DNA of 59,993 nt from a virus (lineage: Duplodnaviria > Caudoviricetes): positions 1 through 59,993 of IMG/VR virus record IMGVR_UViG_3300044630_000957; one strand, given 5' to 3'. The position numbers were made by a program, and so were the translations under genes. Positions within the stretch are counted from its first letter, which is position 1, and every line of letters begins with the position of its first letter. Positions 12,591-59,993 of the stretch are shown piece by piece. Under the pieces are notes generated by a model, which was given only the letters and a program-made list of their open reading frames with translations, was not told the origin of the DNA and searched no databases.

Positions 12591-13566
12591 TTTCTTCCCA
12601 TGCCGCTGTCGCAGCCTCACCGATTGCGCCCATGAACGGGCAGGGCGTACCAGCCATCTCCATCGCCCTGAAGACACGGGTGTCTTGGCACAGGAGGCTC
12701 ACGGCAGCGACGCGCATGCCCATGTCGTACAGGGTCTTCGAGAGCTTCATCCGCTCACAGTTTTGGTCGCGCACAGTGCGGCCAGCCGACAGGCCGATGA
12801 TTTGCGTCTGCACTGCACCAGACTGCCCAGTGGTGCAAAGATCTTGGCTGTAGGACATCATGCTTGGCGCGATGGCGCTGGGCGGAGGCGACTTGATGTT
12901 CTGATCGATAACCTGCCGAGAGACGTTCTCGCTATAGCTTTTGCTGTCGGAGACGTTGACGTTGTTGTTCTGGTTGACGTTGTTCGTCGTGCTGTTGATT
13001 GTCGAGTTCGACGTGTCGTTGTTGATGTTCCGGTTGGTGTTATCGGACCTGCTATTCACGCTCTGGTTGATCGTGCTGTTGCTCGTGTCGGTATTGATGT
13101 TCCGGTTGACGTTATCCGACGTGCTGGTGTTCTGGTTGATGTTCGTCATCGTGCCAGAATTGACGTTGGTGTTCTGGTTGATGTTCGTCATCGTGCCAGT
13201 ATTTTGGTTGATGTTCGTGTTCGTCGAAACATTGTTGTTCGTGTTGACCGACGTGCTCACGTTATTGTTGTTGTTCGTGTTGACCGACGTGCTCGTGCTG
13301 GCGTTCACGTTGTTGTTCGTGTTGACCGACGTGCTGGCAGACGTGCTGTTGTTGTTATTCGTGTTCGTCGACGTGCTGGTGGAATTGTTGTTATTGTTGT
13401 TCGTGTTTGTGCTGGTCGTCGTATTGGTGTTGTCCGACGTGCTGGTCGTGGTCGTGTTATAGATATATTCCGTAGGCGCTACGGATGCAGGCGGAGGGGT
13501 TGCCTGCGCAAACACGAGAGAAGCCGCGCTGGTGGCGGCCACAAAACCAAACAGAAACCGTTTCAT
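12562..13566 (-). CDS. Exported protein with signal peptide, Asn/Thr-rich repeats and a C-terminal domain with four Cys
   Basis: MKRFLFGFVAATSAASLVFA|Q; NTNNNN-STS repeats; PPPSAIAPS...DLC...NCERMKLSK...LLCQD...GTPCP. Confidence 0.8.
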   Translation of the reverse strand: MKRFLFGFVAATSAASLVFAQATPPPASVAPTEYIYNTTTTSTSDNTNTTTSTNTNNNNNNSTSTSTNTNNNNSTSASTSVNTNNNVNASTSTSVNTNNNNNVSTSVNTNNNVSTNTNINQNTGTMTNINQNTNVNSGTMTNINQNTSTSDNVNRNINTDTSNSTINQSVNSRSDNTNRNINNDTSNSTINSTTNNVNQNNNVNVSDSKSYSENVSRQVIDQNIKSPPPSAIAPSMMSYSQDLCTTGQSGAVQTQIIGLSAGRTVRDQNCERMKLSKTLYDMGMRVAAVSLLCQDTRVFRAMEMAGTPCPFMGAIGEAATAAWEENADRRPDAD

Positions 13567-34478: not shown

Positions 34479-34507
34479 GGGGTATGAAATTATTTTCATT
34501 ATAGGGC

Positions 34508-34559
34508 TTGCAATGCCTAATTGCATCGTCTAGGTACTGTCTATCAGCAACGAAGGAGA
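34508..34559 (+). promoter_or_regulatory. Early promoter P1 with palindromic operator and conserved leader
   Basis: TTGCAA-N17-TAGGTA; TGCAAT-N5-ATTGCA; leader ATCAGCAACGAAGGAG. Confidence 0.85.
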
Positions 34560-34566
34560 CTACCAA

Positions 34567-34773
34567 ATGACAATGCTTATCGACCTAGACCGCAAGTGCG
34601 CCGCCACACAAAAGTGGGAGAAGGTTTCCACCTTCCGCTACTTCGTTGACGCAGACGCCGTCGCCCGCCTCCTAAGCAAGATGGACGGCACTGCCTACCG
34701 CATCCGCGACAACCGCTGGTCCAACGACGGTGTTGAAGTCACCGTCTTCACCAATGGGGAGGTAGCAGCATGA
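34567..34773 (+). CDS. Early hypothetical protein (68 aa)
   Basis: AAGGAG RBS; first gene after P1. Confidence 0.8.
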   Translation: MTMLIDLDRKCAATQKWEKVSTFRYFVDADAVARLLSKMDGTAYRIRDNRWSNDGVEVTVFTNGEVAA

Positions 34774-37743: not shown

Positions 37744-37862
37744 GCCGCCCGATAGGCACCATCGCCGTCCGCAAGAGCGGGAAACAGTACGGCATCCGAA
37801 AGGGTCGAGCCTACAAAACTCGCGTTATTAACGGCGTCCCGTTCATCACAAGAATATTATGA
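37740..37862 (+). CDS. Small basic peptide (40 aa), not in the ORF track
   Basis: ATGA coupling; MSRPIGTIAVRKSGKQYGIRKGRAYKTRVINGVPFITRIL. Confidence 0.55.
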   Translation: MSRPIGTIAVRKSGKQYGIRKGRAYKTRVINGVPFITRIL

Positions 37863-37882
37863 ACGAAATGTTTCGATAGCTA

Positions 37883-37933
37883 TTGCAATGCCTGATTGCA
37901 TCGACTAGGGATTGTTTATCAGCAACACGGAGA
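37883..37933 (+). promoter_or_regulatory. Early promoter P2 with operator and leader
   Basis: TTGCAA-N17-TAGGGA; TGCAAT-GCCTG-ATTGCA; ATCAGCAACACGGAG. Confidence 0.85.
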
Positions 37934-37939
37934 CACCAA

Positions 37940-38254
37940 ATGGAAAACCCCGACTACACCGAACGCCAGATCAACGAAGCCCTCAAGGCGCACACGCAGC
38001 TCGACATCACCGTCATGTGGGACGGCTACGAGCCAGAGCGCGGCGGGACGGCGGACTTCGAAGTCTACCTCGACGGCGACACGACCGATCTGGTGGTCTG
38101 GGACCACGGGACTTCTTTTGACATCTACGCACGCACAGGCGAGCGCCACTACACCTCAAAGGGTTGGGCTGGTAACTACAAAAAGCTGGCCGCCAACCTC
38201 ACCAACATCATTCAAGAGGCGATCATCGCCGGAGAAATGGGAGAGTACGCATGA
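37940..38254 (+). CDS. Hypothetical protein (104 aa)
   Basis: ATG at 37940 after GGAG; first gene after P2. Confidence 0.8.
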   Translation: MENPDYTERQINEALKAHTQLDITVMWDGYEPERGGTADFEVYLDGDTTDLVVWDHGTSFDIYARTGERHYTSKGWAGNYKKLAANLTNIIQEAIIAGEMGEYA

Positions 38255-40068: not shown

Positions 40069-42134
40069 GCGAGGACGACGACATGGCAAGCGTAAGGGCT
40101 ATTGCGCCCAAATTGCTTTCGCTGGAAGTGCCAGAGGAACTGCGTTCAGTTCCCGCGTGGCTCATCTGGCGCTTTGAGAAATACAACAGTGAACCAAAGC
40201 CACGCAAGGTGCCCTACTGGACCGACGGCACCATCCGTCACGGCCAGCAAGGCTCGCCGACCGATCGCACGCGGCTGACGACCTTCGCCGCAGCGCGCGA
40301 CGCCGCAGCGCGCATGGGCTATGACGGCGTCGGCTTCGCGCCGCTGCCTGATTTCGGCTACACCTTCCTCGACTTCGACCACTGCGTCGGGCCGAACGGC
40401 GAGATCCCGAACGACATCGAGCGCATCATTGTGCGTACCTATGCCGAGTACAGCCCCAGCGGCAAAGGCATCCGCGCCGCGCTGAAGGGCAATCTGGGCA
40501 ACCACAAGAGCCACGCCACGCCCGATCGCTTCGGCTTCGAGACGTTCAGCAGCTCAGGCTTCGTGACCTTCACCGGCAACATCCTGCCCGCCTGCGAGAT
40601 GATTGGCCTCCAGAACACAGTGGCTGACGTCGACCCGTACACGATCGACATGTGCGAGAAGCGCTTCGGCTCAGTGCAGAACAACATCGTCGACCCCGAC
40701 GACTTCATGGCAGGCCGCGAGCCACGGCTGGGCCTGACCATTGGGCGCATTGAAGAACTGTTGGCCGCCCTCGATCCCGACATGGGCCGCGAGCAGTGGA
40801 TCAAGACCGGCATGGCCGTGGCCCATGAGACTGACGGCGGCGACGACGGCTTTGATCTGTGGGACGACTGGTCGAGCAATGGCTACACTTACCCCGGCAC
40901 TGAAGGCCTGCGCGTCCAGTGGGACAGCTTCGAGCGGCGCAAGGGATCGAACCGCAAGCAGGTCACCATGGCCTCGGTCATCAAGATGGTGAAGGATGCC
41001 GCAGCAACGCGCCCCAGTAAGGCGGCGAGCGCCCAAGAGGTGTCGGCCAAGGCCGATGCGCTCGTCGCAGAGCTAGGGGCTTCAGAGGGCGTGTATTCGC
41101 CTGCGGGCTACACTGGCAAGTTCCCTGTCCTGTCTGCCGATGAGATGACCAAGCAGAAGACGGCTAAGTGGCTCATCAAGGGCGTGCTGCCTGCCGCCGA
41201 CATCGTCACGATCTTCGGCGCGTCAGGCTCAGGCAAGAGCTTTGTCGTGCTTGAGATGGCGGCCTGCATCGCACTGGGCGTGCCGTGGCGCGGCCACAAG
41301 GCCGAGAAGGGCCGCGTCATCATCATCGCGGCGGAAGGCGCAGGCAGTTACGGCAAGCGTATTAAGGCGCTGGCGCAGTATCTAGGCATCTCGCCCAAGG
41401 ATCTGGACATTGGCGTGATCGTCGTGCCGCCGAACCTCATGGAGGAGGGCGACGTGACCGAGCTCGCCGCGTCGATCAAGGCGGTCGGCGACGTGTCGCT
41501 GATCATCATCGACACCTTTGCGCAGGTGACGCCGGGCGCGAACGAGAACGGCGCGGAGGACATGGGCCTCGCCCTGTCCAACGTGCGTGTGCTGGGCGAT
41601 GCCACAGGCGCGACGGTCGAGCTTGTACACCACGCAGGCAAGGACGCGCACCGAGGCTCACGCGGCTGGTCAGGCATCCGTGCCGCCGTCGACGCCGAGC
41701 TGGAAGTGACGCGCGACGAGGACAGCGGCGCACGGCAGATCCGCACCACCAAGCAGAAGGATGGCGAGGACGGGCTGAAGTGGGGCTTCAAGTTGGAGAC
41801 GATCCTGCTGGGCCTCGACGAGGACGGTGACGACATCACGAGCTGCGTCGCGGTCGAGGACGAGCTGCGTTCGCCAGCCACTGGCGACAAGAAATCAGTG
41901 AAGCGTCGCGGGCGTGTTGAGACCCATATCCTTGAGGTCATGACCACCTTTGCAGAAGACGCAGTTGTTCGCGCAGAGGAGCTCATCCAGAAGGCTTGCG
42001 ATATGTTACCACCGCCAGAACAGGGCAAGCGCGACATCCGCCGTCAAACGGTTGTCAGGGCAATTCAACAACTTAGCAAGGAGAAGGACGGCCCGCTGCG
42101 CATGGAAAACGGCATTGTAATTTTTTACGAATAG
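40065..42134 (+). CDS. Primase-helicase (primase-polymerase N-terminus, PriCT-like domain, RepA/AAA_25 helicase)
   Basis: DFDH and EYSPSGKGIR primase motifs; W..WS helical domain; GASGSGKS, IIIDT, HHAGKD and RGWSG. Confidence 0.9.
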   Translation: MSEDDDMASVRAIAPKLLSLEVPEELRSVPAWLIWRFEKYNSEPKPRKVPYWTDGTIRHGQQGSPTDRTRLTTFAAARDAAARMGYDGVGFAPLPDFGYTFLDFDHCVGPNGEIPNDIERIIVRTYAEYSPSGKGIRAALKGNLGNHKSHATPDRFGFETFSSSGFVTFTGNILPACEMIGLQNTVADVDPYTIDMCEKRFGSVQNNIVDPDDFMAGREPRLGLTIGRIEELLAALDPDMGREQWIKTGMAVAHETDGGDDGFDLWDDWSSNGYTYPGTEGLRVQWDSFERRKGSNRKQVTMASVIKMVKDAAATRPSKAASAQEVSAKADALVAELGASEGVYSPAGYTGKFPVLSADEMTKQKTAKWLIKGVLPAADIVTIFGASGSGKSFVVLEMAACIALGVPWRGHKAEKGRVIIIAAEGAGSYGKRIKALAQYLGISPKDLDIGVIVVPPNLMEEGDVTELAASIKAVGDVSLIIIDTFAQVTPGANENGAEDMGLALSNVRVLGDATGATVELVHHAGKDAHRGSRGWSGIRAAVDAELEVTRDEDSGARQIRTTKQKDGEDGLKWGFKLETILLGLDEDGDDITSCVAVEDELRSPATGDKKSVKRRGRVETHILEVMTTFAEDAVVRAEELIQKACDMLPPPEQGKRDIRRQTVVRAIQQLSKEKDGPLRMENGIVIFYE

Positions 42135-42139
42135 GGGGG

Positions 42140-42194
42140 TTGCAATCCCAAATTGCATTCCCTATATAGCGTCTATCAGCAACGCAAATAGGAG
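42140..42194 (+). promoter_or_regulatory. Early promoter P3 with operator and leader
   Basis: TTGCAA-N17-TATATA; TGCAAT-CCCAA-ATTGCA; ATCAGCAACGCAAATAGGAG. Confidence 0.85.
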
Positions 42195-42202
42195 TACAAA
42201 AC

Positions 42203-42514
42203 ATGGCAACCGTAGCCGCAAATATTTCCAACATTTCCCCAGTCGACCGTCTGGGTGACATCAAGGCCGAGATCGCCCGCTTGAAGGACATCGAAGCCTT
42301 TCTTCTCGACGAGATCAAGGATCTTGGCGCGGGTGCCCATGAGGGCCACACCTTCCGCGCCACTGTGTCCGAGATTGCCGAGCGCTCGTCGCTTTGCCCC
42401 AAGGCAGCCGAAGCCAAGCTCCGCGAGCTGGGCGTCGACGGTCGCTGGTTCAGCAAGAACCAGAAGGTAACTAAGGGCTACACGACCGTTAAGGTCGTGG
42501 CGCGCAAGGCGTAA
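42203..42514 (+). CDS. Hypothetical protein (103 aa)
   Basis: AGGAG RBS; VDRLGDIKAEIARL; first gene after P3. Confidence 0.8.
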   Translation: MATVAANISNISPVDRLGDIKAEIARLKDIEAFLLDEIKDLGAGAHEGHTFRATVSEIAERSSLCPKAAEAKLRELGVDGRWFSKNQKVTKGYTTVKVVARKA

Positions 42515-43507: not shown

Positions 43508-44685
43508 TGGCACACGCCAAACTTAGTCCGTCCGGCGCGCATCGCTGGATGGCCTGTTCAGGCAGTGTTGGCCTTGAGGCACCGTTCCCTGATAGCAGCA
43601 GCGTCTACGCCGCCGAGGGCACCGTGGCGCACGACGTCGCGGCGCAGTGTCTGATCGACGACAGAGATCCGGCATCGTTCATAGGCGACGTCATGGAGGT
43701 CGACGGTTTCACCTTTACGGTCGACAAGGCCATGGCTGACTATGTGGCCGACTACGTCAAGCTCGTTCGCGATCTGGCTAAGGGCAAGACGCTCTACGCC
43801 GAGAGCAAGGTGCCGATCGATCACCTGACAGGCGAAGAGGGAGCCACAGGCACCAGCGACGCCGTCATCATCGACGTTGCCGATCGCAACCTGTCGATCG
43901 TCGATCTGAAGTACGGCATGGGCGTTACCGTGGACGCCACAGATAACCCGCAGCTCATGATGTATGCGCTGGGCGCATTGGAGCTGTACGGCGTCCTGTG
44001 CGACTTCGACACGGTCAGCATGTACATCCACATGCCGCGCCTAAACTATGTGGCCGAGTGCCACATGCCGGTAAGTGAATTACTTACCTTCGCGGATCAA
44101 GTCCGTGAGGCGGCGTCAAGGATCGAGGAACCGACGTTTAACCCCGGCGAGAAGCAGTGCCGCTTCTGTAAGGCGAAGTCGACGTGCCCCGCCCTGCGGG
44201 CTGAGGTGACGGAGATTGTCGGCGGATCGGCCACGGTCGATGAGTTCCTGCCCGACGTGCCAGACATGCAGACAGGCGATAACTATCTGTCTATGGCCAT
44301 GGCGAAGGTCGGGCTGGTCGAAGACTGGTGCAAGGGCGTCCGCGCCGAGGTCGAGCGGCGCTTGCTGGCAGGGCAGACGGTCGACGGCTTTAAGCTCGTG
44401 GAGGGCCGCAAGGGCAACCGCAAGTGGTCGAATGAGGCCGAGGTCGAGGCCCTGCTCAAGTCTTTCCGCATGCGGCAGGACGAGATGTATGATATGAGCT
44501 TGATTTCCCCGACAAAGGCGGAGAAGATGTTCAAGAGTAACCCCAAGCGGTGGGAGAAGGTCGAAGCATTGACCACCCGCAGCGACGGTAAGCCATCTGT
44601 GGCATTTGCCTCGGATAAGCGGTCAGAGATGACCGTTCAATCGGTCGCGGACGATTTCCGTGACCTTCTTAAAACTGCAAACTGA
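43507..44685 (+). CDS. DUF2800 family Cas4-like PD-(D/E)xK nuclease
   Basis: HAKLSPSGAHRW..C, AAEGT.AH, GTSDA, IVDLKYG, NPQL..YALG and QCRFCKAK..C. Confidence 0.9.
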   Translation: MAHAKLSPSGAHRWMACSGSVGLEAPFPDSSSVYAAEGTVAHDVAAQCLIDDRDPASFIGDVMEVDGFTFTVDKAMADYVADYVKLVRDLAKGKTLYAESKVPIDHLTGEEGATGTSDAVIIDVADRNLSIVDLKYGMGVTVDATDNPQLMMYALGALELYGVLCDFDTVSMYIHMPRLNYVAECHMPVSELLTFADQVREAASRIEEPTFNPGEKQCRFCKAKSTCPALRAEVTEIVGGSATVDEFLPDVPDMQTGDNYLSMAMAKVGLVEDWCKGVRAEVERRLLAGQTVDGFKLVEGRKGNRKWSNEAEVEALLKSFRMRQDEMYDMSLISPTKAEKMFKSNPKRWEKVEALTTRSDGKPSVAFASDKRSEMTVQSVADDFRDLLKTAN

Positions 44686-44703
44686 AGAAGTGGATAATTG
44701 ATA

Positions 44704-45288
44704 ATGGCTACACGTATTATGCTCAAGGGCATCACACTGGCGTTTCCGGCTCTGGCCGAACCGCAGGCATTTGGCGAAGGCGAACCAGCCTATGGTGCCA
44801 AGTTCCCGATCAAGCCAAACAGCGAACAGCAGAAGGCCATTGAGGCTGCCATGCTGGCCGAAGCCACAGAGGCATGGAAGGACAAGGCCGACAGCGTTTT
44901 GTCCATGCTGGCCGACGACGGCAAGGTCGCCTTCGCAAAGAAGGTGTACAAGTCGAAGAAGACTGGGGAAGCCTACCAAGGCTTTGAAGGCATGCACTAT
45001 CTGTCTGCCCGCAACGCCAAGACCCAGCCGACCGTGTTTAACGAATACGGCGACGAACTGAAGAGCAAGGGCGACATCGAAGCCAAGGCGTTCAGCGGTG
45101 CGTTGGTTAACGCTTCGGTCGAGATCTGGGCGCAGGACAACAAGTGGGGTCGGCGCATTAACTGCTCCCTGCGCGGTGTCATGCTGACAGGCGAAGGCGA
45201 AAACGTCGGCGGCGGCTCAAGCCCAGCGTCGGCGGATGAGTTCGCGACTTTGGCCAAAGCCAAGGCTGACGCGGACGATCTCCTGTGA
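44704..45288 (+). CDS. Single-stranded DNA-binding protein (DUF2815, T7 gp2.5-like)
   Basis: LAFPAL.EP, FSG..VNAS, INCSLRGVM...GE..GG and an acidic tail. Confidence 0.88.
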   Translation: MATRIMLKGITLAFPALAEPQAFGEGEPAYGAKFPIKPNSEQQKAIEAAMLAEATEAWKDKADSVLSMLADDGKVAFAKKVYKSKKTGEAYQGFEGMHYLSARNAKTQPTVFNEYGDELKSKGDIEAKAFSGALVNASVEIWAQDNKWGRRINCSLRGVMLTGEGENVGGGSSPASADEFATLAKAKADADDLL

Positions 45289-45539
45289 GCGACGTAGGAC
45301 ACAATAGCGCGGGCGATCCGCTCCGCCTTCTGATCGAGCGCATCGAGCGTCTCGAAGAGGAGAAGAAGGGCGTCGCGGAGGACATCAAGGACGTGTACAC
45401 CGAGGCTAAGGCCCGTGGGTATGTGCCGAAGATCATCCGCGAGATCGTCCGCATCCGCAAGATGTCGAAGGATGACAGGGACGAGCATTTCGCGATACTC
45501 GATACCTATGCTTCGGCTATTGGCTTAGACCTACTTTAG
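45285..45539 (+). CDS. gapR: GapR-like nucleoid-associated protein (DUF2312)
   Basis: LRLLIERIERLEEEKK..AEDIKDVY.EAK.RGY..K.IR.IV.IRK. Confidence 0.92.
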   Translation: MSDVGHNSAGDPLRLLIERIERLEEEKKGVAEDIKDVYTEAKARGYVPKIIREIVRIRKMSKDDRDEHFAILDTYASAIGLDLL

Positions 45540-45548
45540 GTCTATAGT
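45520..45548 (+). promoter_or_regulatory. Promoter with a perfect palindromic operator in its spacer
   Basis: TTGGCT-N17-TATAGT; TAGACCTA-CTT-TAGGTCTA at 45526-45544. Confidence 0.75.
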
Positions 45549-45551
45549 CAC

Positions 45552-45685
45552 GGTGTGCCTGCCCCACATCCACCCTTTGCGGGCGGGCACACCTTCTTTC
45601 TGGCGAGCCGCGCGCGGGTGCGGGTTGCTCCTGCGTTGCTGATAACCGAAGCGCGCGGCTCACCTGAAAGAAGGAGTTATCAGCA
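45552..45685 (+). ncRNA. Structured RNA (leader or sRNA) with a loop antisense to the early-mRNA leaders
   Basis: Hairpin 45552-45593 (13 bp); hairpin 45592-45615 / 45651-45674 (22 of 24 complementary); loop contains CTCCTGCGTTGCTGATA. Confidence 0.75.
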
Positions 45686-45978
45686 TGAAACTTACAATCC
45701 CACAAATCCGCGACTTGATTTCTGAACTGACCGATGAAGGCATAAAGTTGTCCCGTCGGCAGTATGAGATAAACTTGCGCATTAACGCTTTGATGCAGGA
45801 GACCTACCGTCGGACCTACAGCCGCGCGCCGGTCAAGAGCAAACGCATCACCAACGCTGTGCGTCTGTCGGTCTGGGCTATGGCAAAAGATAACCCAGAC
45901 GCATCGCATCAAGAGATCGCCGAAGCGCATAACATCAACATCGGTCGCGTCAGCGAGATCCTGCACGGCAAACGATGA
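45685..45978 (+). CDS. HTH DNA-binding protein
   Basis: C-terminal NPDASHQEIAEAHNINIGRVSEILHG HTH; AAGGAG RBS. Confidence 0.8.
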   Translation: MKLTIPQIRDLISELTDEGIKLSRRQYEINLRINALMQETYRRTYSRAPVKSKRITNAVRLSVWAMAKDNPDASHQEIAEAHNINIGRVSEILHGKR

Positions 45979-47939
45979 GCGTCCTGTACCTCGATTTGGA
46001 AACCTTCTGCACCGTCAACATCAGGCACGGCGCGTATCGTTATGCCGAAGAGGCAGAGGTGATGCTTGTCGCCATTGCGAAAGACAACGATCCGGTGGAC
46101 GTCTGGGACACGCAGGACATGCCGAACTGGCGTGAGGCGCTGCGTGAGGCAGTTGAGGCTGCCGACACCGTCGTGATCCACAACAGCAACTTCGATCGCA
46201 CCGTCCTGCGCGAGCAGGGCGTCAACATCCCCGTCGAGAAGATCGTTGACACGATGGTGATGGCGCTACAGCACAGCCTGCCGGGCTCTCTGGGCCAGCT
46301 CTGCGACGCGTTAAACGTGCCGCAGGATAAAGCTAAAGACAAAGCAGGCAAAAAGCTGATACACTTATTCACCAAGCCGTGCCCCAAGAATTGGAAACTA
46401 CGGCGCGCAACACGGGAGACGCACCCCAATGACTGGACAGCCTTCATCGAATACGCCCGACTTGATGTGGACGCGATGCGAGACATACATGGACGCCTGC
46501 CGCATTGGAACGATAGTGATTATGAACGAAACCTTTGGCGGGTCGACCAGAGAATTAATGACCGTGGTATCGCCGTCGACCTCGATTTCGCGCGATCCGC
46601 TCTCCGAGCTTTTGACCGAGCTTCAAGAACTCTGGCCTCTCGTGCAGCCCATCTGACTGGCGGCAGCGTCACCTCGGCCACGCAGCGTCAGCGGCTGCTT
46701 GACCACTTCAAGGACACTCTGGACTTCGAGCCCGAAGACCTGACGCGCGCCACGCTTGGCAACCTGCTCGGTGGGAAGCTCGACCCGAAGGTGCGCGAGT
46801 TGCTGGAGATCCGGCAGCAGGCCGCCGCAACGTCACCGGCTAAGTACACTGTGCTGCTCAACGGCGCGTCACGCGACGGTCGCCTGCGCGGCCTGATCCA
46901 GTTCTGCGGCGCGGCGCGCACTGGGCGTGATGCTGGGCGGCTGTTTCAGCCCCAGAACCTGCCCCGATCGCCCGACTGGTTCGACGACGTCGTACAGGAG
47001 ACGACCGTGGCCGCGTTTAAGGCGGACTGCGAAGACATCATCTGGGACAACGTCAGCGAGCGTTGCGCCTTCGGCGTGCGCGGCGCGCTGGTCGCGCCTG
47101 TTGGCAAGAAGCTGGTCATCGCCGATCTGTCGAACATCGAAGGTCGCGTGCTGGCGTGGCTGGCGAACGAAGAATGGAAGATCAAGGCTTTCAAGGCCTA
47201 TGACAGCGGCGACGGGCACGACCTGTACAAGGTGACCGCTGGACGCATCCTCGACAAAGATCCGAGCGACATCACGAAGACCGAGCGGCAGCTCCAAGGC
47301 AAGGTGCCTGAGCTCGCTGGGGGCTATCAGGGCGGCGTCGGCGCGTACCGGAAGATGGGCGGCGCAGTCTTTGACGCGATGACCGACGAGGCCATACAAG
47401 AGATCGTCACGGCGTGGCGCAAGGCGCACCCGCGCACGCGCAGCCTGTGGTACGACATGGAGGCGGCTGCCCGCGAGGCGATCAACAATCTGGGCGAGAG
47501 CTTCGGCGTGCGCGGCCTGATTACGTTCGACGTCAAGGCGGACACGCAGGGCATCGCGTGGCTGCGCATGCGGCTGCCGAGCGGTCGCTACCTGTGCTAC
47601 CCGTCCCCAGAGGTGTCGGAGAGCGGCACCATCACGCACGAGGGCATGAACCAATACACCCGCAAGTGGGAGCGCCTCGACACCTACGGCGGCAAGCTGA
47701 CAGAGAACGCGGTGCAGGCGATCGCCCGCGACGTGTTCATGTCTGGCATGCTGCGCGCCGAGATCGACGGCTTCAACGTCTGCATCCGCGTCCATGACGA
47801 GCTCGTGTGCGAGACGCCGGACAACCCGACCTACACGAGTGATGGTCTGGCCGCGCTCATGTCGACCAACCCAAGCTGGTCTGGGGGACTGCCCTTGTCG
47901 GCGGCTGGGTTTGAGACGAAGAGGTATAGGAAGGAATGA
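45975..47939 (+). CDS. polA: DNA polymerase family A with 3'-5' exonuclease
   Basis: LDLETF exo I, HNSNFDR exo II, ADLSNIEGRV motif A, R...K..EL..GY motif B, VHDE motif C. Confidence 0.95.
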   Translation: MSVLYLDLETFCTVNIRHGAYRYAEEAEVMLVAIAKDNDPVDVWDTQDMPNWREALREAVEAADTVVIHNSNFDRTVLREQGVNIPVEKIVDTMVMALQHSLPGSLGQLCDALNVPQDKAKDKAGKKLIHLFTKPCPKNWKLRRATRETHPNDWTAFIEYARLDVDAMRDIHGRLPHWNDSDYERNLWRVDQRINDRGIAVDLDFARSALRAFDRASRTLASRAAHLTGGSVTSATQRQRLLDHFKDTLDFEPEDLTRATLGNLLGGKLDPKVRELLEIRQQAAATSPAKYTVLLNGASRDGRLRGLIQFCGAARTGRDAGRLFQPQNLPRSPDWFDDVVQETTVAAFKADCEDIIWDNVSERCAFGVRGALVAPVGKKLVIADLSNIEGRVLAWLANEEWKIKAFKAYDSGDGHDLYKVTAGRILDKDPSDITKTERQLQGKVPELAGGYQGGVGAYRKMGGAVFDAMTDEAIQEIVTAWRKAHPRTRSLWYDMEAAAREAINNLGESFGVRGLITFDVKADTQGIAWLRMRLPSGRYLCYPSPEVSESGTITHEGMNQYTRKWERLDTYGGKLTENAVQAIARDVFMSGMLRAEIDGFNVCIRVHDELVCETPDNPTYTSDGLAALMSTNPSWSGGLPLSAAGFETKRYRKE

Positions 47940-48229
47940 CGCCCGCAGGACGCCTACAGGACCACCTCAAGCACGTCGTGCAGAAGAGTGGGGGTCAGTA
48001 CCGCAAGGTGCGCTGGGAGGGCCGTAGGGGCTGTCCAGACTGCTTTGTGTGGTGGACGTGGCCCAAGGCGGCCTTTATAGAGATCAAGGCGGACGCCGAT
48101 CGCGTCAGCGGGCACCAGCAGCGCGAGATCGAGCGCATGAGAAACGACGGTTTTCCGGTCTTTATCGCTCGGTCGATAGAAGAAATCGACGAAATAGTGA
48201 AAAAAGTGCAGAAGGGGGTTGCAACCTGA
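47936..48229 (+). CDS. VRR-NUC domain nuclease
   Basis: G.PD...FIEIK......S..Q pattern; follows the polymerase. Confidence 0.88.
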   Translation: MTPAGRLQDHLKHVVQKSGGQYRKVRWEGRRGCPDCFVWWTWPKAAFIEIKADADRVSGHQQREIERMRNDGFPVFIARSIEEIDEIVKKVQKGVAT

Positions 48230-48268
48230 CGTTGCATATGCCACTAGAGTGCATCAGCAACGAAGGAG
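48219..48268 (+). promoter_or_regulatory. Early promoter P4 with operator and leader
   Basis: TTGCAA; TGCAAC-CTGAC-GTTGCA; ATCAGCAACGAAGGAG; the -10 box is less clear. Confidence 0.8.
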
Positions 48269-48277
48269 TACAATACC

Positions 48278-48442
48278 ATGAAGACCACCGCATATATTTA
48301 TGAGCACATCGAAGGTTCCAACTGGCGTTTGATAGAAAAACGCACAGCCTCGCTTTGGTTGCTTCGCGCCTACGTTAAGGCGCTAACGAACCGCTATGAC
48401 GAGCCATACAAACTCGAAATCGTTTCAGGAGGCGCAGCATGA
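48278..48442 (+). CDS. Small protein (54 aa), not in the ORF track
   Basis: AAGGAG RBS; MKTTAYIYEHIEGSNWRLIEKR...SGGAA. Confidence 0.75.
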   Translation: MKTTAYIYEHIEGSNWRLIEKRTASLWLLRAYVKALTNRYDEPYKLEIVSGGAA

Positions 48443-56534: not shown

Positions 56535-57577
56535 TTACCTTTCAGCGAACCGACGATGCCCGCCGCAGCGGTTAGCGCGCTGGCAATATCTTTCCCAGTC
56601 GATGAGTACTCCTGTTTGACGCCTGACGGCGAGATACCGTATTCTTGCGTCGCGCTTGGGACGCCGGAGGCAACACCTTGGAACGTCTTCATCATGTTGT
56701 TGATCTGCTCTTGCGGATAGCCCTGCTGACGCAGGAAGTCCTGATACGCCACGTCGAGGTTCTTCTGACCCTGCTGCTGCTCCAGTGCGCCGACGCCGCC
56801 CAGCGCGCCTGCGCCAGTGAGGCCGAGGCTCTGCGCCTGCTCGCCGAGTGTCGACAGAGCGCCAGAGGCGGCGAGCTGCTGTTGCTGCTGCGCCCGCGCC
56901 AGATCGCCAGCCGTGCTTGCGAGAGTGCCGAAGCGCGACAGGTCAGTGCCTGCGAGCCCAGCGGCCTGCGTGTAACCGGATTGGAGCGCCTCAGTCTGCT
57001 TACCGAGGATGTCGGCACTGGTGTCGCGAAGGGCGCGCGCCGTGTCGGTCATCATGCCCGACGGCGTGCCGCCTAAGCCACCACGCCCGCCGAAGCCGAG
57101 CTGACCGGCTTGGATGTAGCGGCCTTCGATTGCAGGCATAAGGTTTTCTGTGAGGTTGCGCGTGCCCAGCTCGCCGATGCGGTTGACAACGGCGTCGGTA
57201 TACGGGTTCATGTACTGGCCGATGTTCGACACGGATGTCTGACCGGCCTGCGTCAAGAACGGCTGTGCGGTGTTTAACGCGCCCGGCGCATTCGCGGCGC
57301 TCTGCGCAACGCCTGTGGCTTGATTGAATAGTGGCTGGTACGCCGTGGCGGCGTTGCCGGTCATGCCGAAGGCTTGCTGCTGCGTCGGCGTGAAGCCCGC
57401 AACGCGCGGCATCGGCGCTGTCTCGTATGGGCGATTGGCTATAGCCTGCTGCCCCGACAGGATGTCCATCGCGTAGTTGGTGTACCACTCAGGCAGCACC
57501 TGCTGCTTGGTCATGTCCGTGAGGGCGGAGCCTTGCGGGATTGCGGCCCCCTCGGCTAGGAATGAACTGATAGCCAT
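56531..57577 (-). CDS. Putative ejection / pilot protein (348 aa)
   Basis: Q/A/G-rich; VAGFTPTQQQAF, YMNPY and QGYP segments; hydrophobic C-terminus. Confidence 0.7.
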   Translation of the reverse strand: MAISSFLAEGAAIPQGSALTDMTKQQVLPEWYTNYAMDILSGQQAIANRPYETAPMPRVAGFTPTQQQAFGMTGNAATAYQPLFNQATGVAQSAANAPGALNTAQPFLTQAGQTSVSNIGQYMNPYTDAVVNRIGELGTRNLTENLMPAIEGRYIQAGQLGFGGRGGLGGTPSGMMTDTARALRDTSADILGKQTEALQSGYTQAAGLAGTDLSRFGTLASTAGDLARAQQQQQLAASGALSTLGEQAQSLGLTGAGALGGVGALEQQQGQKNLDVAYQDFLRQQGYPQEQINNMMKTFQGVASGVPSATQEYGISPSGVKQEYSSTGKDIASALTAAAGIVGSLKGK

Positions 57578-59993
57578 TAAATGCGTCCTCCAGACAGATA
57601 TGCTTCGGCCTTCTTGGCGTTAGCACTAAAACGGCCCTTTGCCAACTTCTGACCCTTGTGTTTACGAACTTTAACTCGAAGCTCGTCCAGCTTCTTTGCG
57701 CCAGCCTTATTCGACCCGTCACCCAGCAGGGCGACAGTCTCGGCATCGATCACATATTCGCCGTCGGACAGCACCGCAGGGATGTCGTCGCTGCGGCCAG
57801 TGCCGGGGCCGTTGACTGCAAATTCGCTGCGCTTGGACGAGCCGCCCTTTGCGAAACGCATGTTGTCAACGTCAGGGGCGTACATCGACGGCCCCCTCGG
57901 CTCGTTTGGAATAGGTGTGGTGATAGGCGCAGGGTTGGCTTGCGATGCGTAGTCGAAGAAGTTAAGCTCAGGCCGTGTGCCATAAGTCAACCAGTCTACG
58001 TCGCCCATCGGACGCGCTGTGCGGTTCCCGCCGATAACACCGAGGCCGCCTGCGGATGGCAGCTTGGCCGAGAAGATCGGGTTCAACCGGCCTGTGCCGC
58101 CGCCACCGTATGTGCCAGTTTGGCCTGAGCCACCGCCACCACCGCCGACTAAGCCGGAAATGAGGCTCGCGATGCGCAGGTACTCTTCGAGGCCGAGCTT
58201 CTTCTCGTCTGTCAGCGCGGGGTCGGGCTTTAAGTCCAAAGGACGGAGAGGTTCTAAGGGGGGCATCACCGAAACCGATGTGGGTTCGGGCCGCTCAATC
58301 TTAGAACCTTCTACAACGATTGGCTCCTTGTAGTTTTCCATACCGGAAACCCTGTCGATTACGCCGAGATCGGTTGGCATAAAGGTGCCGCTTGCGGGCT
58401 GCTCAATCCTCTTAGTAGCGTCTACAACAATGTCATTTGGTAAAACCGCTGGAGCTGTAGTCGTAAGCGCACCTAAGTCTATGCCGCTAGTAACCGCGCC
58501 GGGGCGCTGACCTGTTACCTTGATGATGTCTTCTTCGGCGATCTGGTCGGCTCCAGTAGGAAAGTTCTCCAGTCCGTCAATCGCGGGGATTACTTCAGGA
58601 GACAAACTGCCCAAGTCTAGTCCGCCAGTAACCGCGCCGGAGCGGGTTCCTGAAACGACAATCTCGTCGGTGTTGTTTACCACGGGGTCTGCTGTCAGAC
58701 CGGCTAAGTTTAACCCGCCAGTAACCGCACCGGGAACAGAGCCAGTGACGTTAATAATATCGCCATCGTATCCGCTGGTGTAATCCGCATTCGTTAAGGA
58801 GTTGGGTACCTTGGTGTTGGCGGCGTCATCCAAATACTTTTGCTCAGGCGTTTTATACCCACCAAGATTTATATTTGGCGTCGAAATGCTGGGCGTAGCA
58901 TTGACTATGATTTCCGCATTTGGGCCGCCGTAGACGGCACTACTATCAACGCCACCGCCAGTGCTGGTACTTGTGGCGGGCGCTTGATTTATGCCAAGAC
59001 CTTTAACTATGTCGGGCGTGACGTAACTAAGCGCGCCAGAAGCGACACCACCGAGGAGGGAACTCTTTAGGTCTTGTCCGGTAGCCAATCCGCCTGCGGT
59101 GGCACCGAGGCCCGTACCAATCGCGGTGCCCGCTCTAAGACCAATGTCCCCAACCTTACCTAAAGGGGCACCAAGAAGGGAGCCACCAGCGGCGGAGAGG
59201 CCGCCCATCGCCGCGCCCTTGAGAATGTTGTCACCCTTTAGGCCCGCGCCTGCGGCACCGAGGGCAGTCCCAAGACCAATTTTACCCGCAGTACTTGCAA
59301 GAAGCGAGCCTGCCGACGCGCCCGCAGTCAGCGGGATCATCGCCAGCGGCAGCAAGGTGCCTGCCACGTTGGCAATCGTACCCAGCGTGCTCTTGTTCTT
59401 CTTCTCATACGCGACGGTCGAATAGTTACCAGTCGGGTCTGCGGTTTGGATGCTGTAGTTCGCCTTGCGACCAAACTGGTTCGTCAGGCCCTGACCTAAT
59501 TCGGTTGCCTTGCGCGCGGCGTCAAAGCCTGTACCCTCGAACACGATCTGGTTGGTGCGGTGGTCAACGAGGCGTACAGGCTGGTCGGCCCGCACCGCGA
59601 AGGTGTTGCCACCCGTCTGCGACGTGGCGTTGCCTTTGTTAGATAAAGGCGCGCTGATGTACTGCAAATTAGGATCGGCTTGGTATATGCCGCCCATCGG
59701 GCCGCCACCGAAGTTCGAACCGAAATTCATCCCGTACAGGTTGTTTAGGCCGCTCAGGTCAAGTTTGCTAAAGTCAAACGTGTTAGGGTCGAACGGCACT
59801 TCGGCAGGCACAGCCTCTGTCGTCATCGGCTCGACTGCCGCTTGCTGGTACGGCTGCTCAACAGGCGCGGGCAGCATGCCGCCACCGCCGTATGGCAGCT
59901 CGTTATAGCCGCCCATGTCGTATCCGCCGTACATCATAGGCTGCTCGACAGGCATATACTGCTCGACGGGTGGGGTGTACTGGTACGGCTCGC
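57577..59993 (-). CDS. Putative ejection protein, allele B; 5' end beyond the right edge, about 850 aa if completed with 2125-2260
   Basis: Glycine zipper, TonB-box-like repeats, C-terminal FAKGG...GPGTGRSDDIPAVLSDGEYVI domain resembling tape-measure C-termini. Confidence 0.8.
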   Translation of the reverse strand, partial: EPYQYTPPVEQYMPVEQPMMYGGYDMGGYNELPYGGGGMLPAPVEQPYQQAAVEPMTTEAVPAEVPFDPNTFDFSKLDLSGLNNLYGMNFGSNFGGGPMGGIYQADPNLQYISAPLSNKGNATSQTGGNTFAVRADQPVRLVDHRTNQIVFEGTGFDAARKATELGQGLTNQFGRKANYSIQTADPTGNYSTVAYEKKNKSTLGTIANVAGTLLPLAMIPLTAGASAGSLLASTAGKIGLGTALGAAGAGLKGDNILKGAAMGGLSAAGGSLLGAPLGKVGDIGLRAGTAIGTGLGATAGGLATGQDLKSSLLGGVASGALSYVTPDIVKGLGINQAPATSTSTGGGVDSSAVYGGPNAEIIVNATPSISTPNINLGGYKTPEQKYLDDAANTKVPNSLTNADYTSGYDGDIINVTGSVPGAVTGGLNLAGLTADPVVNNTDEIVVSGTRSGAVTGGLDLGSLSPEVIPAIDGLENFPTGADQIAEEDIIKVTGQRPGAVTSGIDLGALTTTAPAVLPNDIVVDATKRIEQPASGTFMPTDLGVIDRVSGMENYKEPIVVEGSKIERPEPTSVSVMPPLEPLRPLDLKPDPALTDEKKLGLEEYLRIASLISGLVGGGGGGSGQTGTYGGGGTGRLNPIFSAKLPSAGGLGVIGGNRTARPMGDVDWLTYGTRPELNFFDYASQANPAPITTPIPNEPRGPSMYAPDVDNMRFAKGGSSKRSEFAVNGPGTGRSDDIPAVLSDGEYVIDAETVALLGDGSNKAGAKKLDELRVKVRKHKGQKLAKGRFSANAKKAEAYLSGGRI
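57810..59993. repeat. Imperfect terminal redundancy, copy B
   Basis: Matches 1-2124 with SNPs and a replaced central block (58372-59380). Confidence 0.95.

What the first reader, a model, noticed from the sequence alone, without database searches (positions are those of the whole stretch)
45592..45687. The same RNA can lock its own downstream ribosome-binding site (stem plus pseudoknot), a possible RNA-sensing switch for the DNA polymerase operon
Seen: the 3' arm of the long hairpin includes GAAAGAAGG, part of the SD AAGGAG (45671-45676). The loop segment TGCTGATAAC (45638-45647) is perfectly complementary to GTTATCAGCA (45676-45685), which lies between the SD and the ATG. Inference: translation of the HTH gene and the coupled polA is off by default, and early-mRNA leaders could compete for the loop, like a natural toehold switch reporting early transcript levels.
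Basis: partly seen in the sequence, partly recalled or inferred. Interest (0 to 1): 0.8.

Follow-up and report, generated by a model that had tools for sequence, protein, structure and literature searches.

The report
Phage leader hairpin with antisense loop
A conserved RNA hairpin in front of a lake phage's DNA-polymerase genes hides their ribosome-binding site and displays a loop that matches, and co-evolves with, the starts of the phage's other early messages, so it looks like a new phage antisense regulator.

Summary
The Shine-Dalgarno AAGGAG (45671-45676) sits in the 3' arm of a long hairpin (45592-45674, -51.9 kcal/mol).

The hairpin belongs to a family absent from Rfam. I compared 58 distinct leaders from uncultured-phage contigs. 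The ribosome-site-locking stem is present in all 58, and 9 of its 22 pairs show two-sided compensatory changes. Loop-spacer pairing of at least 8 nt is kept in 34 of 58 and co-varies (A:U to C:G), but it is absent in 20.

Stem and pseudoknot cannot form together in one molecule. A single nucleotide would have to span 24 stacked layers.

Four promoter-proximal leaders in the window carry (T/C)ATCAGCAAC, the complement of the loop. Loop and leaders co-vary across classes: GUUGCUGAUA with UAUCAGCAAC, GUUGUUGGUA with UACCAACAAC, and CUUGCUUGAUA with UAUCAAGCAA. A fifth class instead targets ribosome sites (GGAGGGACACC).

The complementarity never enters the locking stem, so a toehold ON-switch is not supported. 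My best reading, at confidence 0.5, is a stem-displayed antisense "anti-leader" that works like the c4 RNA of phage P1. It would repress the leader-bearing operons, and in some lineages its own operon. Direction and processing are untested.

The parts
45520..45548 (+). Promoter-like site TTGGCT-17-TATAGT at the end of the GapR gene. The predicted start lies near 45555, at the foot of hairpin 1.
   Evidence: 9 of 12 matches. The TTGGCN-17-TATAnn arrangement recurs in relatives after the GapR stop codon. Promoter activity is inferred, not shown.
45552..45601 (+). Hairpin 1 (GGTGTGCCTGCCC / GGGCGGGCACACC) followed by TTCTTTCT. It looks like an intrinsic terminator for the upstream operon. Its U-rich tail is also the 5' arm of the lower stem.
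   Evidence: I2; (the stem sequence differs between relatives but still pairs). The terminator scan did not call it because its loop exceeds 8 nt.
45592..45674 (+). Long hairpin. Lower stem 45592-45600 with 45666-45674; GG/CC 45602-03 with 45663-64; upper stem 45605-45615 with 45651-45661. Conserved mismatches U.U (45601/45665) and C.A (45604/45662).
   Evidence: Of 22 pairs, 9 show two-sided compensatory changes; 96% of cells are paired; 0 of 500 shuffles reach the observed covariation.
45620..45634 (+). Small apical hairpin P2 (GCGGG UUGCU CCUGC). It carries CUCCU (45628-45632), a second sequence complementary to Shine-Dalgarno sites.
   Evidence: helix 2; the G:U pair at columns 39/53 is GU in 35 rows and GC in 22, which fits + strand RNA.
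45635..45646 (+). Single-stranded antisense segment GUUGCUGAUAAC on the 3' side of the apical loop. It is complementary to the leaders (45634/35-45644) and to the cis spacer (45637-45646).
   Evidence: (opening cost 0.64 kcal/mol).
45671..45676 (+). Shine-Dalgarno AAGGAG of the HTH gene, paired in the lower stem.
45676..45685 (+). Cis target GUUAUCAGCA between the Shine-Dalgarno and the AUG. It shares UAUCAGCA with the leaders.
   Evidence: I4.
45685..47939 (+). First genes of the operon: a 97-aa weak-HTH ORF (45685-45978), overlapped by ATGA with family-A DNA polymerase (45975-47939).
34508..34569 (+). Leader P1: TTGCAA-17-TAGGTA, 5 nt, TATCAGCAACGAAGGAG, ATG at 34567.
   Evidence: repeat D20; duplex with the apical region -30.4 kcal/mol.
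37883..37942 (+). Leader P2: TTGCAA-17-TAGGGA, 5 nt, TATCAGCAACACGGAG, ATG at 37940. Its operon holds a C5 methylase and a primase/helicase.
   Evidence: (-26.8).
42140..42205 (+). Leader P3: TTGCAA-17-TATATA, 5 nt, TATCAGCAACGCAAATAGGAG, ATG at 42203. Its operon runs through DUF2800, SSB and GapR to hairpin 1.
   Evidence: (-29.7).
48219..48280 (+). Leader P4: TTGCAA promoter-like site, then CATCAGCAACGAAGGAG, ATG at 48278, ahead of the SNF2 helicase gene.

Best explanation
The 45552-45687 region is the 5' leader of the phage's polymerase operon. It contains a stable stem that displays an antisense RNA element, an "anti-leader".

Shown: the long hairpin pairs the operon's Shine-Dalgarno with the U-rich tract that follows the upstream terminator-like hairpin. 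It exposes a roughly 10-13 nt single-stranded segment next to a small apical hairpin. That segment, plus the adjacent CUCCU, is complementary to the first 10-17 nt (predicted 5' end through the Shine-Dalgarno) of the messages from the phage's four TTGCAA-type promoters. In about 60% of family members it is also complementary to the spacer before its own start codon.

Inferred: the hairpin RNA, either as part of the mRNA or cut out of it, base-pairs with those leaders and ribosome sites and blocks their translation. This would give shut-off or feedback control of the early and replication operons. It resembles the way c4 RNA of phages P1/P7 acts on icd/ant from within the same transcript. In lineages with the cis site, the polymerase operon is a further target, reached in trans or after the 5' arm has been removed. 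The cis pseudoknot cannot coexist with the full stem. Translation of the polymerase operon needs the lower stem to be opened or cut (RNase III-like or other processing). That step is inferred only.
For: (1) Structure. MFE is -51.9 kcal/mol, z -4.7. Across 58 distinct leaders, 9 of the 22 long-stem pairs show two-sided compensatory changes and 96% of cells are paired. Covariation is 0.199 against 0.112 in shuffles (0 of 500 as high) and 0.038-0.075 when partners are slid. G:U pairs fit the + strand.

(2) The antisense segment is unpaired in the centroid folds of all five other leaders tested, which cover classes B, C, D and the shifted L036 form, and in the window's minimum-energy fold.

(3) The exact 10-mer TATCAGCAAC occurs 4 times in the window: three leaders on the + strand and the loop as its complement. 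With up to 1 mismatch there are 10 matches against 2.56 expected (0 of 100 shuffles), including a fourth leader at 48252.

(4) Class-specific co-variation.
- AB-class loci (62 loci, 626 kb): TATCAGCAAC occurs 34 times on the element's strand, 0 on the other strand, and no class C or D motif occurs.
- D-class loci (20 loci, 187 kb): TACCAACAAC occurs 5 times, no other type.
- C-class loci (10 loci, 70 kb): TATCAAGCAA occurs twice, no other type.
- The changes are compensatory: U:A to C:G, G:C to A:U, and a paired U/A insertion.

(5) Although I searched only for the 10-mer, contiguous complementarity runs 10-15 nt in 23 AB pairs (20 of them longer than 10) and 12-13 nt in 5 D pairs. Cognate duplexes are 7-10 kcal/mol better than cross-class ones.

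(6) Of 40 distinct leader contexts, 32 have TTGCAA, TTGCAC or TTGAC within +/-1 nt of the expected -35 position, and 35 have a Shine-Dalgarno-like site within 30 nt. Leader 5' ends are predicted open, P(unpaired) 0.73-0.98.

(7) Class E (L309, L330, L331) has the same arms but a different apical loop, GGUGUCCCUCCA. That loop is complementary to two ribosome sites behind TTGCAA promoters: GGAGGGACACC-acATG and TGGAGGGACA-gATG.

(8) Energetics: leader-loop duplexes are -26.8 to -30.4 kcal/mol, against 5.7 to open 45628-45644.

(9) The cis spacer co-varies with loop positions that the trans leaders do not reach. The window and L080/L123 leaders differ only at the loop (AC to CA) and the spacer (one T lost).

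(10) A 1671-nt contig from an RNA library spans GapR, both hairpins and the HTH gene into polA. DNA carry-over in that library cannot be excluded.
Against: - No experiment or read-end data show the RNA's ends, any processing, or any regulatory effect. The direction (hairpin acting on leaders, or leaders on hairpin) rests on anatomy alone.
- The co-variation is equally expected if one DNA-binding protein recognises the same 10-bp motif in both orientations.
- Class C and D support is thin. There are 2 and 5 exact leader copies. The complete class D genome G001 has only a 10-nt ACCAACAACG leader, and G002 only 8 nt.
- G003 (class D) also holds one AB-type TATCAGCAAC next to a Shine-Dalgarno site.
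- One class C copy per genome lacks a Shine-Dalgarno site.
- Classes are related by descent, so the number of independent events is small (about three).
- No terminator follows the hairpin, so a discrete small RNA needs a processing step that has not been shown.
- 20 of 58 leaders lack the cis site, so self-targeting is not general.
- Rfam's models give no match, so there is no homology support for a c4-like family.
Confidence: 0.5

Rival explanations
1. The polymerase operon is off by default, and early-mRNA leaders bind the loop as trigger RNAs. This releases the spacer and AUG and switches translation on, like a natural toehold or loop-mediated riboregulator that reports early transcript levels.
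For: The leaders exist, are complementary to the loop over 10-17 nt, and co-vary with it. Leader-loop duplexes (-27 to -30 kcal/mol) would out-compete the 10-bp cis pairing (-14.8). The cis site overlaps the leader-binding segment, so competition is possible.
Against: The Shine-Dalgarno is held by the lower stem, 20 or more layers from the loop, and leader complementarity stops at 45628 without entering either strand of the long stem. Trigger binding therefore cannot open the main lock. The cis pseudoknot needs the lower stem already open (1-nt linker; cost 14.8-20.7 kcal/mol), and the stem is transcribed before the spacer. Twenty of 58 leaders have no cis site yet keep the loop and the leaders.
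Confidence: 0.15
2. A DNA-level motif. The 10-bp sequence TATCAGCAAC is the binding site of a phage regulator, or part of the promoter and initial transcribed region. The copy in the hairpin loop is one more site in the opposite orientation. Co-variation reflects co-evolution of all sites with the protein. The hairpin itself is only a structure that dampens translation from the Shine-Dalgarno.
For: The motif sits at a fixed distance (5 nt) from the -10 hexamer of TTGCAA promoters. All copies change together between classes. An operator-like palindrome TGCAAT-N5-ATTGCA lies in the same promoters, and an HTH gene follows the hairpin.
Against: The inverted copy always falls in the unpaired part of a co-varying RNA hairpin. 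Complementarity extends beyond the motif toward the Shine-Dalgarno and matches the adjacent CUCCU/UCCCUC. In class E the complement is the ribosome site itself, far from the promoter. The cis spacer copy co-varies with loop bases outside the shared motif.
Confidence: 0.15
3. A purely cis element. The hairpin is an RNase III-type processing site, or a fixed translational damper, placed between two operons. The loop complementarities are leftovers of a duplicated leader and have no function.
For: The stem has 24 layers with conserved internal mismatches. Caulobacter phage RW has, at the same position, a terminator-like hairpin followed by a shorter hairpin that also pairs the Shine-Dalgarno, with no antisense-like apical domain. 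This shows that the lock can stand alone.
Against: Loop sequence is conserved where the flanking proteins are only 57-70% identical. There are compensatory changes with the leaders in three classes, and a different loop-target pair in class E. Neither is expected for leftovers.
Confidence: 0.1

Closest known systems
c4 antisense RNA of phages P1/P7 (immI operon c4-icd-ant)
   Same: The regulator RNA is encoded upstream on the same transcript as a target. Its complementary sequences are displayed in loops and bind around the ribosome-binding site. Loop and target differ together between related phages (heteroimmunity). I read passages of PMC12197685 and PMC8198154 for this. Processing by RNase P and the a'/b' loop names are from my recall.
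   Different: There is no sequence or structure match (Rfam scan). Here there is one long stem whose base also locks the downstream Shine-Dalgarno. There are four or more trans targets at the 5' ends of separate operons. The downstream genes are replication genes, not an antirepressor. Processing is unknown, and no lysogeny genes were seen among the proteins scanned.
CI RNA of satellite phage P4 (from recall; my search found no text on it)
   Same: A small RNA cut from a leader pairs with several complementary sites in the phage's own early transcripts.
   Different: By my recall, CI RNA causes premature transcription termination and is the immunity factor. Here the targets are 5' ends and ribosome sites, so translation is the likelier step. 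There is no homology evidence.
Synthetic toehold switches and loop-mediated riboregulators
   Same: The ribosome site is held in a hairpin, and a separate RNA is complementary to a single-stranded part of that hairpin.
   Different: In a toehold switch the trigger's complementarity continues into the stem and displaces it. Here it ends in the apical domain, and the stem holding the Shine-Dalgarno is untouched.
RNase III processing hairpins of T7 early mRNA and the lambda N leader (from recall)
   Same: A long stem with internal mismatches lies between phage operons, and a cut could free a downstream ribosome site.
   Different: Cleavage was not tested. Those sites carry no loop that is antisense to other messages.
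Polymerase leader of Caulobacter phage RW (MK929790, 24323-24420)
   Same: Same gene order (DUF2800, DUF2815 SSB, GapR-like gene, polA). A terminator-like hairpin is followed by a hairpin that pairs the Shine-Dalgarno.
   Different: The hairpin is shorter with a 3-nt loop and no antisense domain. There is no sequence similarity.

Membership tests
C4 antisense RNA family (Rfam; accession from recall) | Match to the family's covariance model | tested here: not met
   cmscan of 44500-46500 at E up to 10 gave only mir-2040 (24.6 bits against a gathering score of 51) and ncS025. The whole window at gathering scores gave 0 matches.
C4 antisense RNA family (Rfam; accession from recall) | Loop sequence complementary to the ribosome-site region downstream on the same transcript | tested here: met
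   45637-45646 against 45676-45685 is 10/10. At least 8 nt is kept in 34 of 58 distinct leaders.
C4 antisense RNA family (Rfam; accession from recall) | Loop and targets change together between related phages | tested here: met
C4 antisense RNA family (Rfam; accession from recall) | Excised from a precursor transcript as a discrete small RNA | not testable with these tools
   Only assembled RNA contigs were available, and these cannot show ends.
Toehold-type riboregulator | Ribosome site or start codon sequestered in a hairpin | tested here: met
Toehold-type riboregulator | Trigger complementarity runs from a single-stranded toehold into the stem that holds the ribosome site | tested here: not met
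   Complementarity to the leaders is confined to 45628-45646. Contiguous runs are 10-15 nt and none reaches 45592-45615 or 45651-45674.
H-type pseudoknot ribosome-site lock (as in SAM-II/preQ1-type switches; from recall) | Connecting loops long enough for both helices to form at once | tested here: not met
   From the sequence: the stem ends at 45674 and the second helix starts at 45676, so 1 nt would have to cross 24 layers. The alternative with the lower stem open costs 14.8-20.7 kcal/mol.
Intrinsic terminator (hairpin 1) | G+C-rich stem directly followed by a U tract | tested here: inconclusive
   A 13-bp stem at 45552-45593 is followed by TTCTTTCT, 6 of 8 T. The scan tool did not list it because it allows loops of 3-8 nt. 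Termination was not measured.
RNase III substrate | About 20 bp or more of near-continuous double-stranded RNA, cleaved by RNase III | not testable with these tools
   The stem length is met (24 layers, 22 pairs). Cleavage is unknown.

The most novel reading that the evidence does not exclude
The hairpin is a master antisense RNA built into the polymerase-operon leader. Its loop co-evolves with a short 5' leader or ribosome site shared by all early and replication operons of the phage. The loop classes (AB, C, D, E) would then be RNA specificity groups, so that related lake phages infecting one cell would or would not cross-silence each other. This would be heteroimmunity by RNA in phages with no visible lysogeny module. 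Locking the operon's own Shine-Dalgarno in the base of the same stem would tie maturation of the antisense RNA to the onset of polymerase synthesis.
Probability: 0.3. Interest if true: 0.85.

Novelty: new variant of a known kind. Interest (0 to 1): 0.78.

Why it matters
If the reading holds, this is a new and widespread family of phage regulatory RNA. The pattern scan matched about 100 IMG/VR stretches, 91 of them scored as elements. None is in Rfam, and none occurs in 50,697 GenBank phage records.

One structured loop would control a whole set of early and replication operons through their shared 5' ends, and in some lineages its own operon. Few phage antisense RNAs are known to act on several of the phage's own operons, and c4 is described as a possible prototype for such RNAs (PMC12197685, passage read).

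The natural co-varying loop-leader classes are ready-made orthogonal pairs for testing RNA-RNA specificity, and possibly for synthetic riboregulators. The family also gives a concrete, testable handle on how uncultured freshwater phages time replication-gene expression.

Tried and rejected
- Rfam: nothing relevant. No tRNA genes.
- blastn of 45545-45700 against GenBank phages: no match.
None of the 120 is a true element; all are chance matches in high-GC genomes, plus one unrelated palindromic repeat, L133. It therefore gives no host information.
This nearly led me to dismiss the "early leaders". They appeared only in the whole-window repeat and duplex scans.
- A kissing contact between the hairpin-1 loop (ATCCACCC) and the apical GGGUG: rejected. 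L038, L052, L055 and L113 have a different hairpin-1 loop but the same apical sequence.
- A DnaA box in the hairpin-1 loop: seen only in a subset of relatives; not pursued.
- A sigma-54 promoter or an internal promoter inside the hairpin: the sequence does not fit (read).
- A leader peptide: ORF 45555-45725 (GTG start, 56 aa) has no Shine-Dalgarno, and I did not count it as a gene.
- RNA runs: only assembled contigs were available. X16, X17 and X19 covered short pieces away from the hairpin. Parts without cover, and contig ends, say nothing.
- Class C/D whole-contig searches found few exact leader copies.
- Distant PolA loci (L311-L319, L324; 33-47% identity) show no comparable leader.
- Literature searches for a described motif found nothing relevant: DUF2800 + RNA motif gave 0 papers; GapR/phage/DNA polymerase; P4 CI RNA; phage antisense/early genes.
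- Not used: the metagenome scan, structure prediction and complex prediction.

Full report
**Setting.** The window is a complete 59,993-bp uncultured virus record (CheckV 100%). Late genes (terminase, capsid) lie on the - strand. From about 34.5 to 50.3 kb the + strand carries an early and replication block:
- C5 methylase
- PriCT_2/AAA_25 primase-helicase
- DUF2800 nuclease
- Enc34-type SSB
- GapR
- a 97-aa weak-HTH ORF
- family-A DNA polymerase
- VRR-NUC
- SNF2 helicase

The nearest cultured relatives are Caulobacter phages RW, KcrB, RLK and GB2A, at about 71% identity over a quarter of a 2-kb query. Apart from two possible source samples, near-identical DNA is held by 12 lake-water metagenome runs, each from a different study.

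**The observation.** It holds, with a one-base slip.
- The long inverted repeat has arms 45589-45615 and 45651-45677.
- AAGGAG (45671-45676) lies in the 3' arm.
- TGCTGATAAC is at 45637-45646, not 45638-45647, and is 10/10 complementary to GTTATCAGCA (45676-45685).
- The fold is -51.9 kcal/mol, z -4.7, with 0 of 200 shuffles as stable. The loop 10-mer lies in an unpaired stretch.
- Directly upstream is a second G+C-rich hairpin (45552-45593). Its U-rich tail, TTCTTTCT, is the 5' arm of the lower stem.
- A promoter-like TTGGCT-17-TATAGT (45520-45548) ends just before that hairpin.

**Relatives.**
- A protein-guided scan found 22 viral loci.
- A DNA pattern built from the conserved arms found 104 stretches in IMG/VR.
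- Of these, 91 oriented copies had the loop motif and full flanks. They collapse to 58 distinct leaders, counting the window.
- The remainder were cut by contig ends or were chance matches in coding-like sequence, for example L034, L040, L061, L087, L089 and L106.
- The element has no match in GenBank phages or in Rfam.
- In nearly all loci the upstream gene is GapR, followed by a TATAnn hexamer, hairpin 1 and the long hairpin.
- The first downstream gene varies: the HTH gene, polA itself, a 220-aa protein with no Pfam match, or a Mom-like gene.

**The stem.**
- RNAalifold predicts 23 pairs, 9 with two-sided compensatory changes.
- On my fixed structure, the long stem has 22 pairs. Twelve are invariant and 9 show two-sided changes. 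In all, 96% of cells are paired.
- Covariation is 0.199, against 0.112 in shuffles (0 of 500 as high) and 0.038-0.075 when partners are slid.
- G:U pairs are compatible only with + strand RNA; at columns 39/53 the pair is GU in 35 rows and GC in 22.
- Two mismatches stay mismatches throughout: C.A or U.U at 45604/45662, and the position 45601/45665.
- The Shine-Dalgarno lock is therefore universal in this family. Phage RW has a shorter, unrelated hairpin that does the same job at the same place.

**The loop-spacer pairing.**
- At least 8 contiguous Watson-Crick pairs are kept in 34 of 58 leaders. Thirty-three of those 34 beat 99% of spacer shuffles.
- Four leaders are intermediate. L056 has 5+5 pairs around one mismatch.
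- Twenty have 4 or fewer.
- Loop position 9 is A opposite T in 10 of 10 leaders and C opposite G in 22 of 23; L062 is the exception. Position 10 also switches between C:G and A:U in some.
- In L036 the register is shifted (TCGTTGCTGA with TCAGCAACGA).
- The window and L080/L123 differ only at these two partner sites. An RNA-library contig shows the same paired change.

Selection for this pairing is therefore real in one sub-lineage. Only A45675 lies between the stem's last pair (45592:45674) and the first pseudoknot base, so one nucleotide would have to cross 24 stacked layers. If the lower stem is opened, the cost is 14.8-20.7 kcal/mol, against -14.8 for the duplex even when scored as two separate molecules. 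The stem is also transcribed before the spacer. The two pairings are alternatives, or the spacer is bound by another molecule.

**The leaders.**
- A whole-window repeat scan found three copies of a 66-nt unit (D20: 34487-34552, 37862-37927, 42119-42184).
- Each unit reads TTGCAA-17-TAnnnn, then 5 nt, then TATCAGCAAC, a Shine-Dalgarno site and an ATG.
- A fourth unit, with CATCAGCAAC, lies at 48219-48280.
- The reverse complement of 45628-45644 is UAUCAGCAACGCAGGAG. The P1 leader matches 16 of these 17 positions. The P3 leader matches 13 of them, then has a 3-nt insertion before AGGAG.
- Duplex energies are -26.8 to -30.4 kcal/mol, against 5.7 to open the segment.
- The leaders' 5' ends are predicted to be open.
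- The same arrangement recurs in relatives.

**Loop-leader co-variation.**

| Class | Loop | Leader motif | Loci / DNA searched | Own-class motif, element's strand | Other strand or other class |
|---|---|---|---|---|---|
| AB | GUUGCUGAUA | TATCAGCAAC | 62 loci, 626 kb | 34 | 0 |
| D | GUUGUUGGUA | TACCAACAAC | 20 loci, 187 kb | 5 | 0 |
| C | CUUGCUUGAUA | TATCAAGCAA | 10 loci, 70 kb | 2 | 0 |

(All counts.) Further points:
- The chance expectation for a 10-mer is about 0.6, 0.2 and 0.07 per strand for the three classes (my arithmetic).
- The differences are two compensated substitutions and one compensated insertion.
- Contiguous complementarity exceeds the 10-mer I searched for in 20 of 23 AB pairs and 5 of 5 D pairs.
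- Of 40 distinct leader contexts, 32 have a TTGCAA-like -35 at the expected place within +/-1 nt, and 35 have a Shine-Dalgarno-like site within 30 nt.
- The antisense segment is unpaired in the centroid folds of all five other leaders I folded and in the window's minimum-energy fold.
- Class E, a more distant group (PolA 54% identical; L309, L330, L331), keeps the arms but has GGUGUCCCUCCA in the apical loop. This is complementary to two ribosome sites behind TTGCAA promoters.

**Weak points.**
- Classes C and D rest on few copies.
- The complete class D genome G001 has a 10-nt match only, and G002 has 8 nt.
- G003 carries one AB-type motif.
- One class C copy per genome has no Shine-Dalgarno site.
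- The classes are related, so the number of independent events is small.

**Reading.**
- The leaders' complementarity stops in the apical domain and never enters the stem that holds the Shine-Dalgarno. Leader binding therefore cannot open that stem the way a toehold trigger does.
- The loop motif and the leaders are kept even where the cis site is absent. The loop's general partner is thus the leaders, and the cis site is an add-on.
- A stable stem displaying a single-stranded seed against 5' ends and ribosome sites is the usual build of an antisense regulator.
- The closest known case is c4 RNA of P1/P7. It lies upstream of its target on the same transcript, binds around the ribosome site through loop sequences, and differs together with its targets between heteroimmune phages (passages of PMC12197685 and PMC8198154).
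- I therefore favour a c4-like anti-leader that represses the TTGCAA-promoter operons and, in AB lineages, the polymerase operon too, once its Shine-Dalgarno is freed.
- How the lock is opened (cleavage of the stem, breathing, a protein) is unknown.

**What is shown and what is inferred.**
- Shown: the sequences, their non-random nature, the stem's co-variation, the class-specific loop-leader and loop-spacer complementarity, and the steric and energetic conflict between stem and pseudoknot.
- Inferred: promoter activity and transcription start sites, termination at hairpin 1, any processing, the direction and sign of regulation, and the host.
- One 1671-nt contig from an RNA library bridges GapR, both hairpins and the HTH gene into polA. 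This is compatible with a read-through transcript, but the library may contain DNA.
- Supplementary files of papers were not consulted.

Noticed in passing
window 34509-34526, 37884-37901, 42141-42158: Each TTGCAA promoter-like site overlaps a palindrome TGCAAT-N5-ATTGCA (class C relatives: TGCAAG...CTTGCA). It looks like an operator for a dimeric regulator overlapping the -35.
   Followed up: partly
window 45526-45544: Inverted repeat TAGACCTA ctt TAGGTCTA spans the GapR stop codon, inside the promoter-like spacer. L080 and L123 carry TAGACTTA...TAAGTCTA, a two-sided change made of a synonymous Leu codon and a TAG-to-TAA stop.
   Followed up: partly
window 45565-45580 and relatives: The loop of hairpin 1 holds ATCCACCC in many relatives (TTATCCACC in L057 and L121), resembling a DnaA box. 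Other relatives have unrelated loops.
   Followed up: partly
window 1-300 vs 57810-58109; 1467-1766 vs 59336-59635: The two ends of the record repeat each other at 95% and 90% identity, within large - strand ORFs (2-2260 and 57577-59955). They could be paralogous genes or an assembly wrap-around of a circularly permuted genome.
   Followed up: no
window 12945-13446 and 14736-21695: Dense internal direct repeats lie in - strand ORFs, including a 2319-aa ORF (repeat families D1-D4, D8, D10). These are probably repetitive fibre or adhesin-like structural proteins.
   Followed up: no
L248 (Caulobacter phage RW, MK929790 24323-24420): A cultured phage with the same gene order has a terminator-like hairpin, then a short hairpin pairing the polA Shine-Dalgarno (GGAG), without the antisense domain. 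It could serve as an experimental model for the lock alone.
   Followed up: partly
L032:6460-6575 and upstream: In this relative the GapR gene is fused mid-way to the 3' half of hairpin 1, apparently by a deletion that removed the gene's end and the hairpin's 5' arm, while the long hairpin is intact.
   Followed up: no
L253 (G003, class D genome): One AB-type TATCAGCAAC followed by AGGAG and an ATG occurs in a class D genome, without a clear TTGCAA promoter. It is an exception to the class rule, or a trace of recombination between classes.
   Followed up: no
L254, L257 (class C genomes): A second copy of TATCAAGCAA is followed by TCACTTTAATGTAGGCT with no Shine-Dalgarno site. It is conserved between two class C contigs and is of unknown nature.
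   Followed up: no
L133 (Fimbriiglobus MAG contig): A perfect 83-nt palindromic hairpin whose arms begin with the same TTCTGGCGAGCCGCG, and which is repeated nearby. It is unrelated to the phage element and is probably a genomic repeat family.
   Followed up: no
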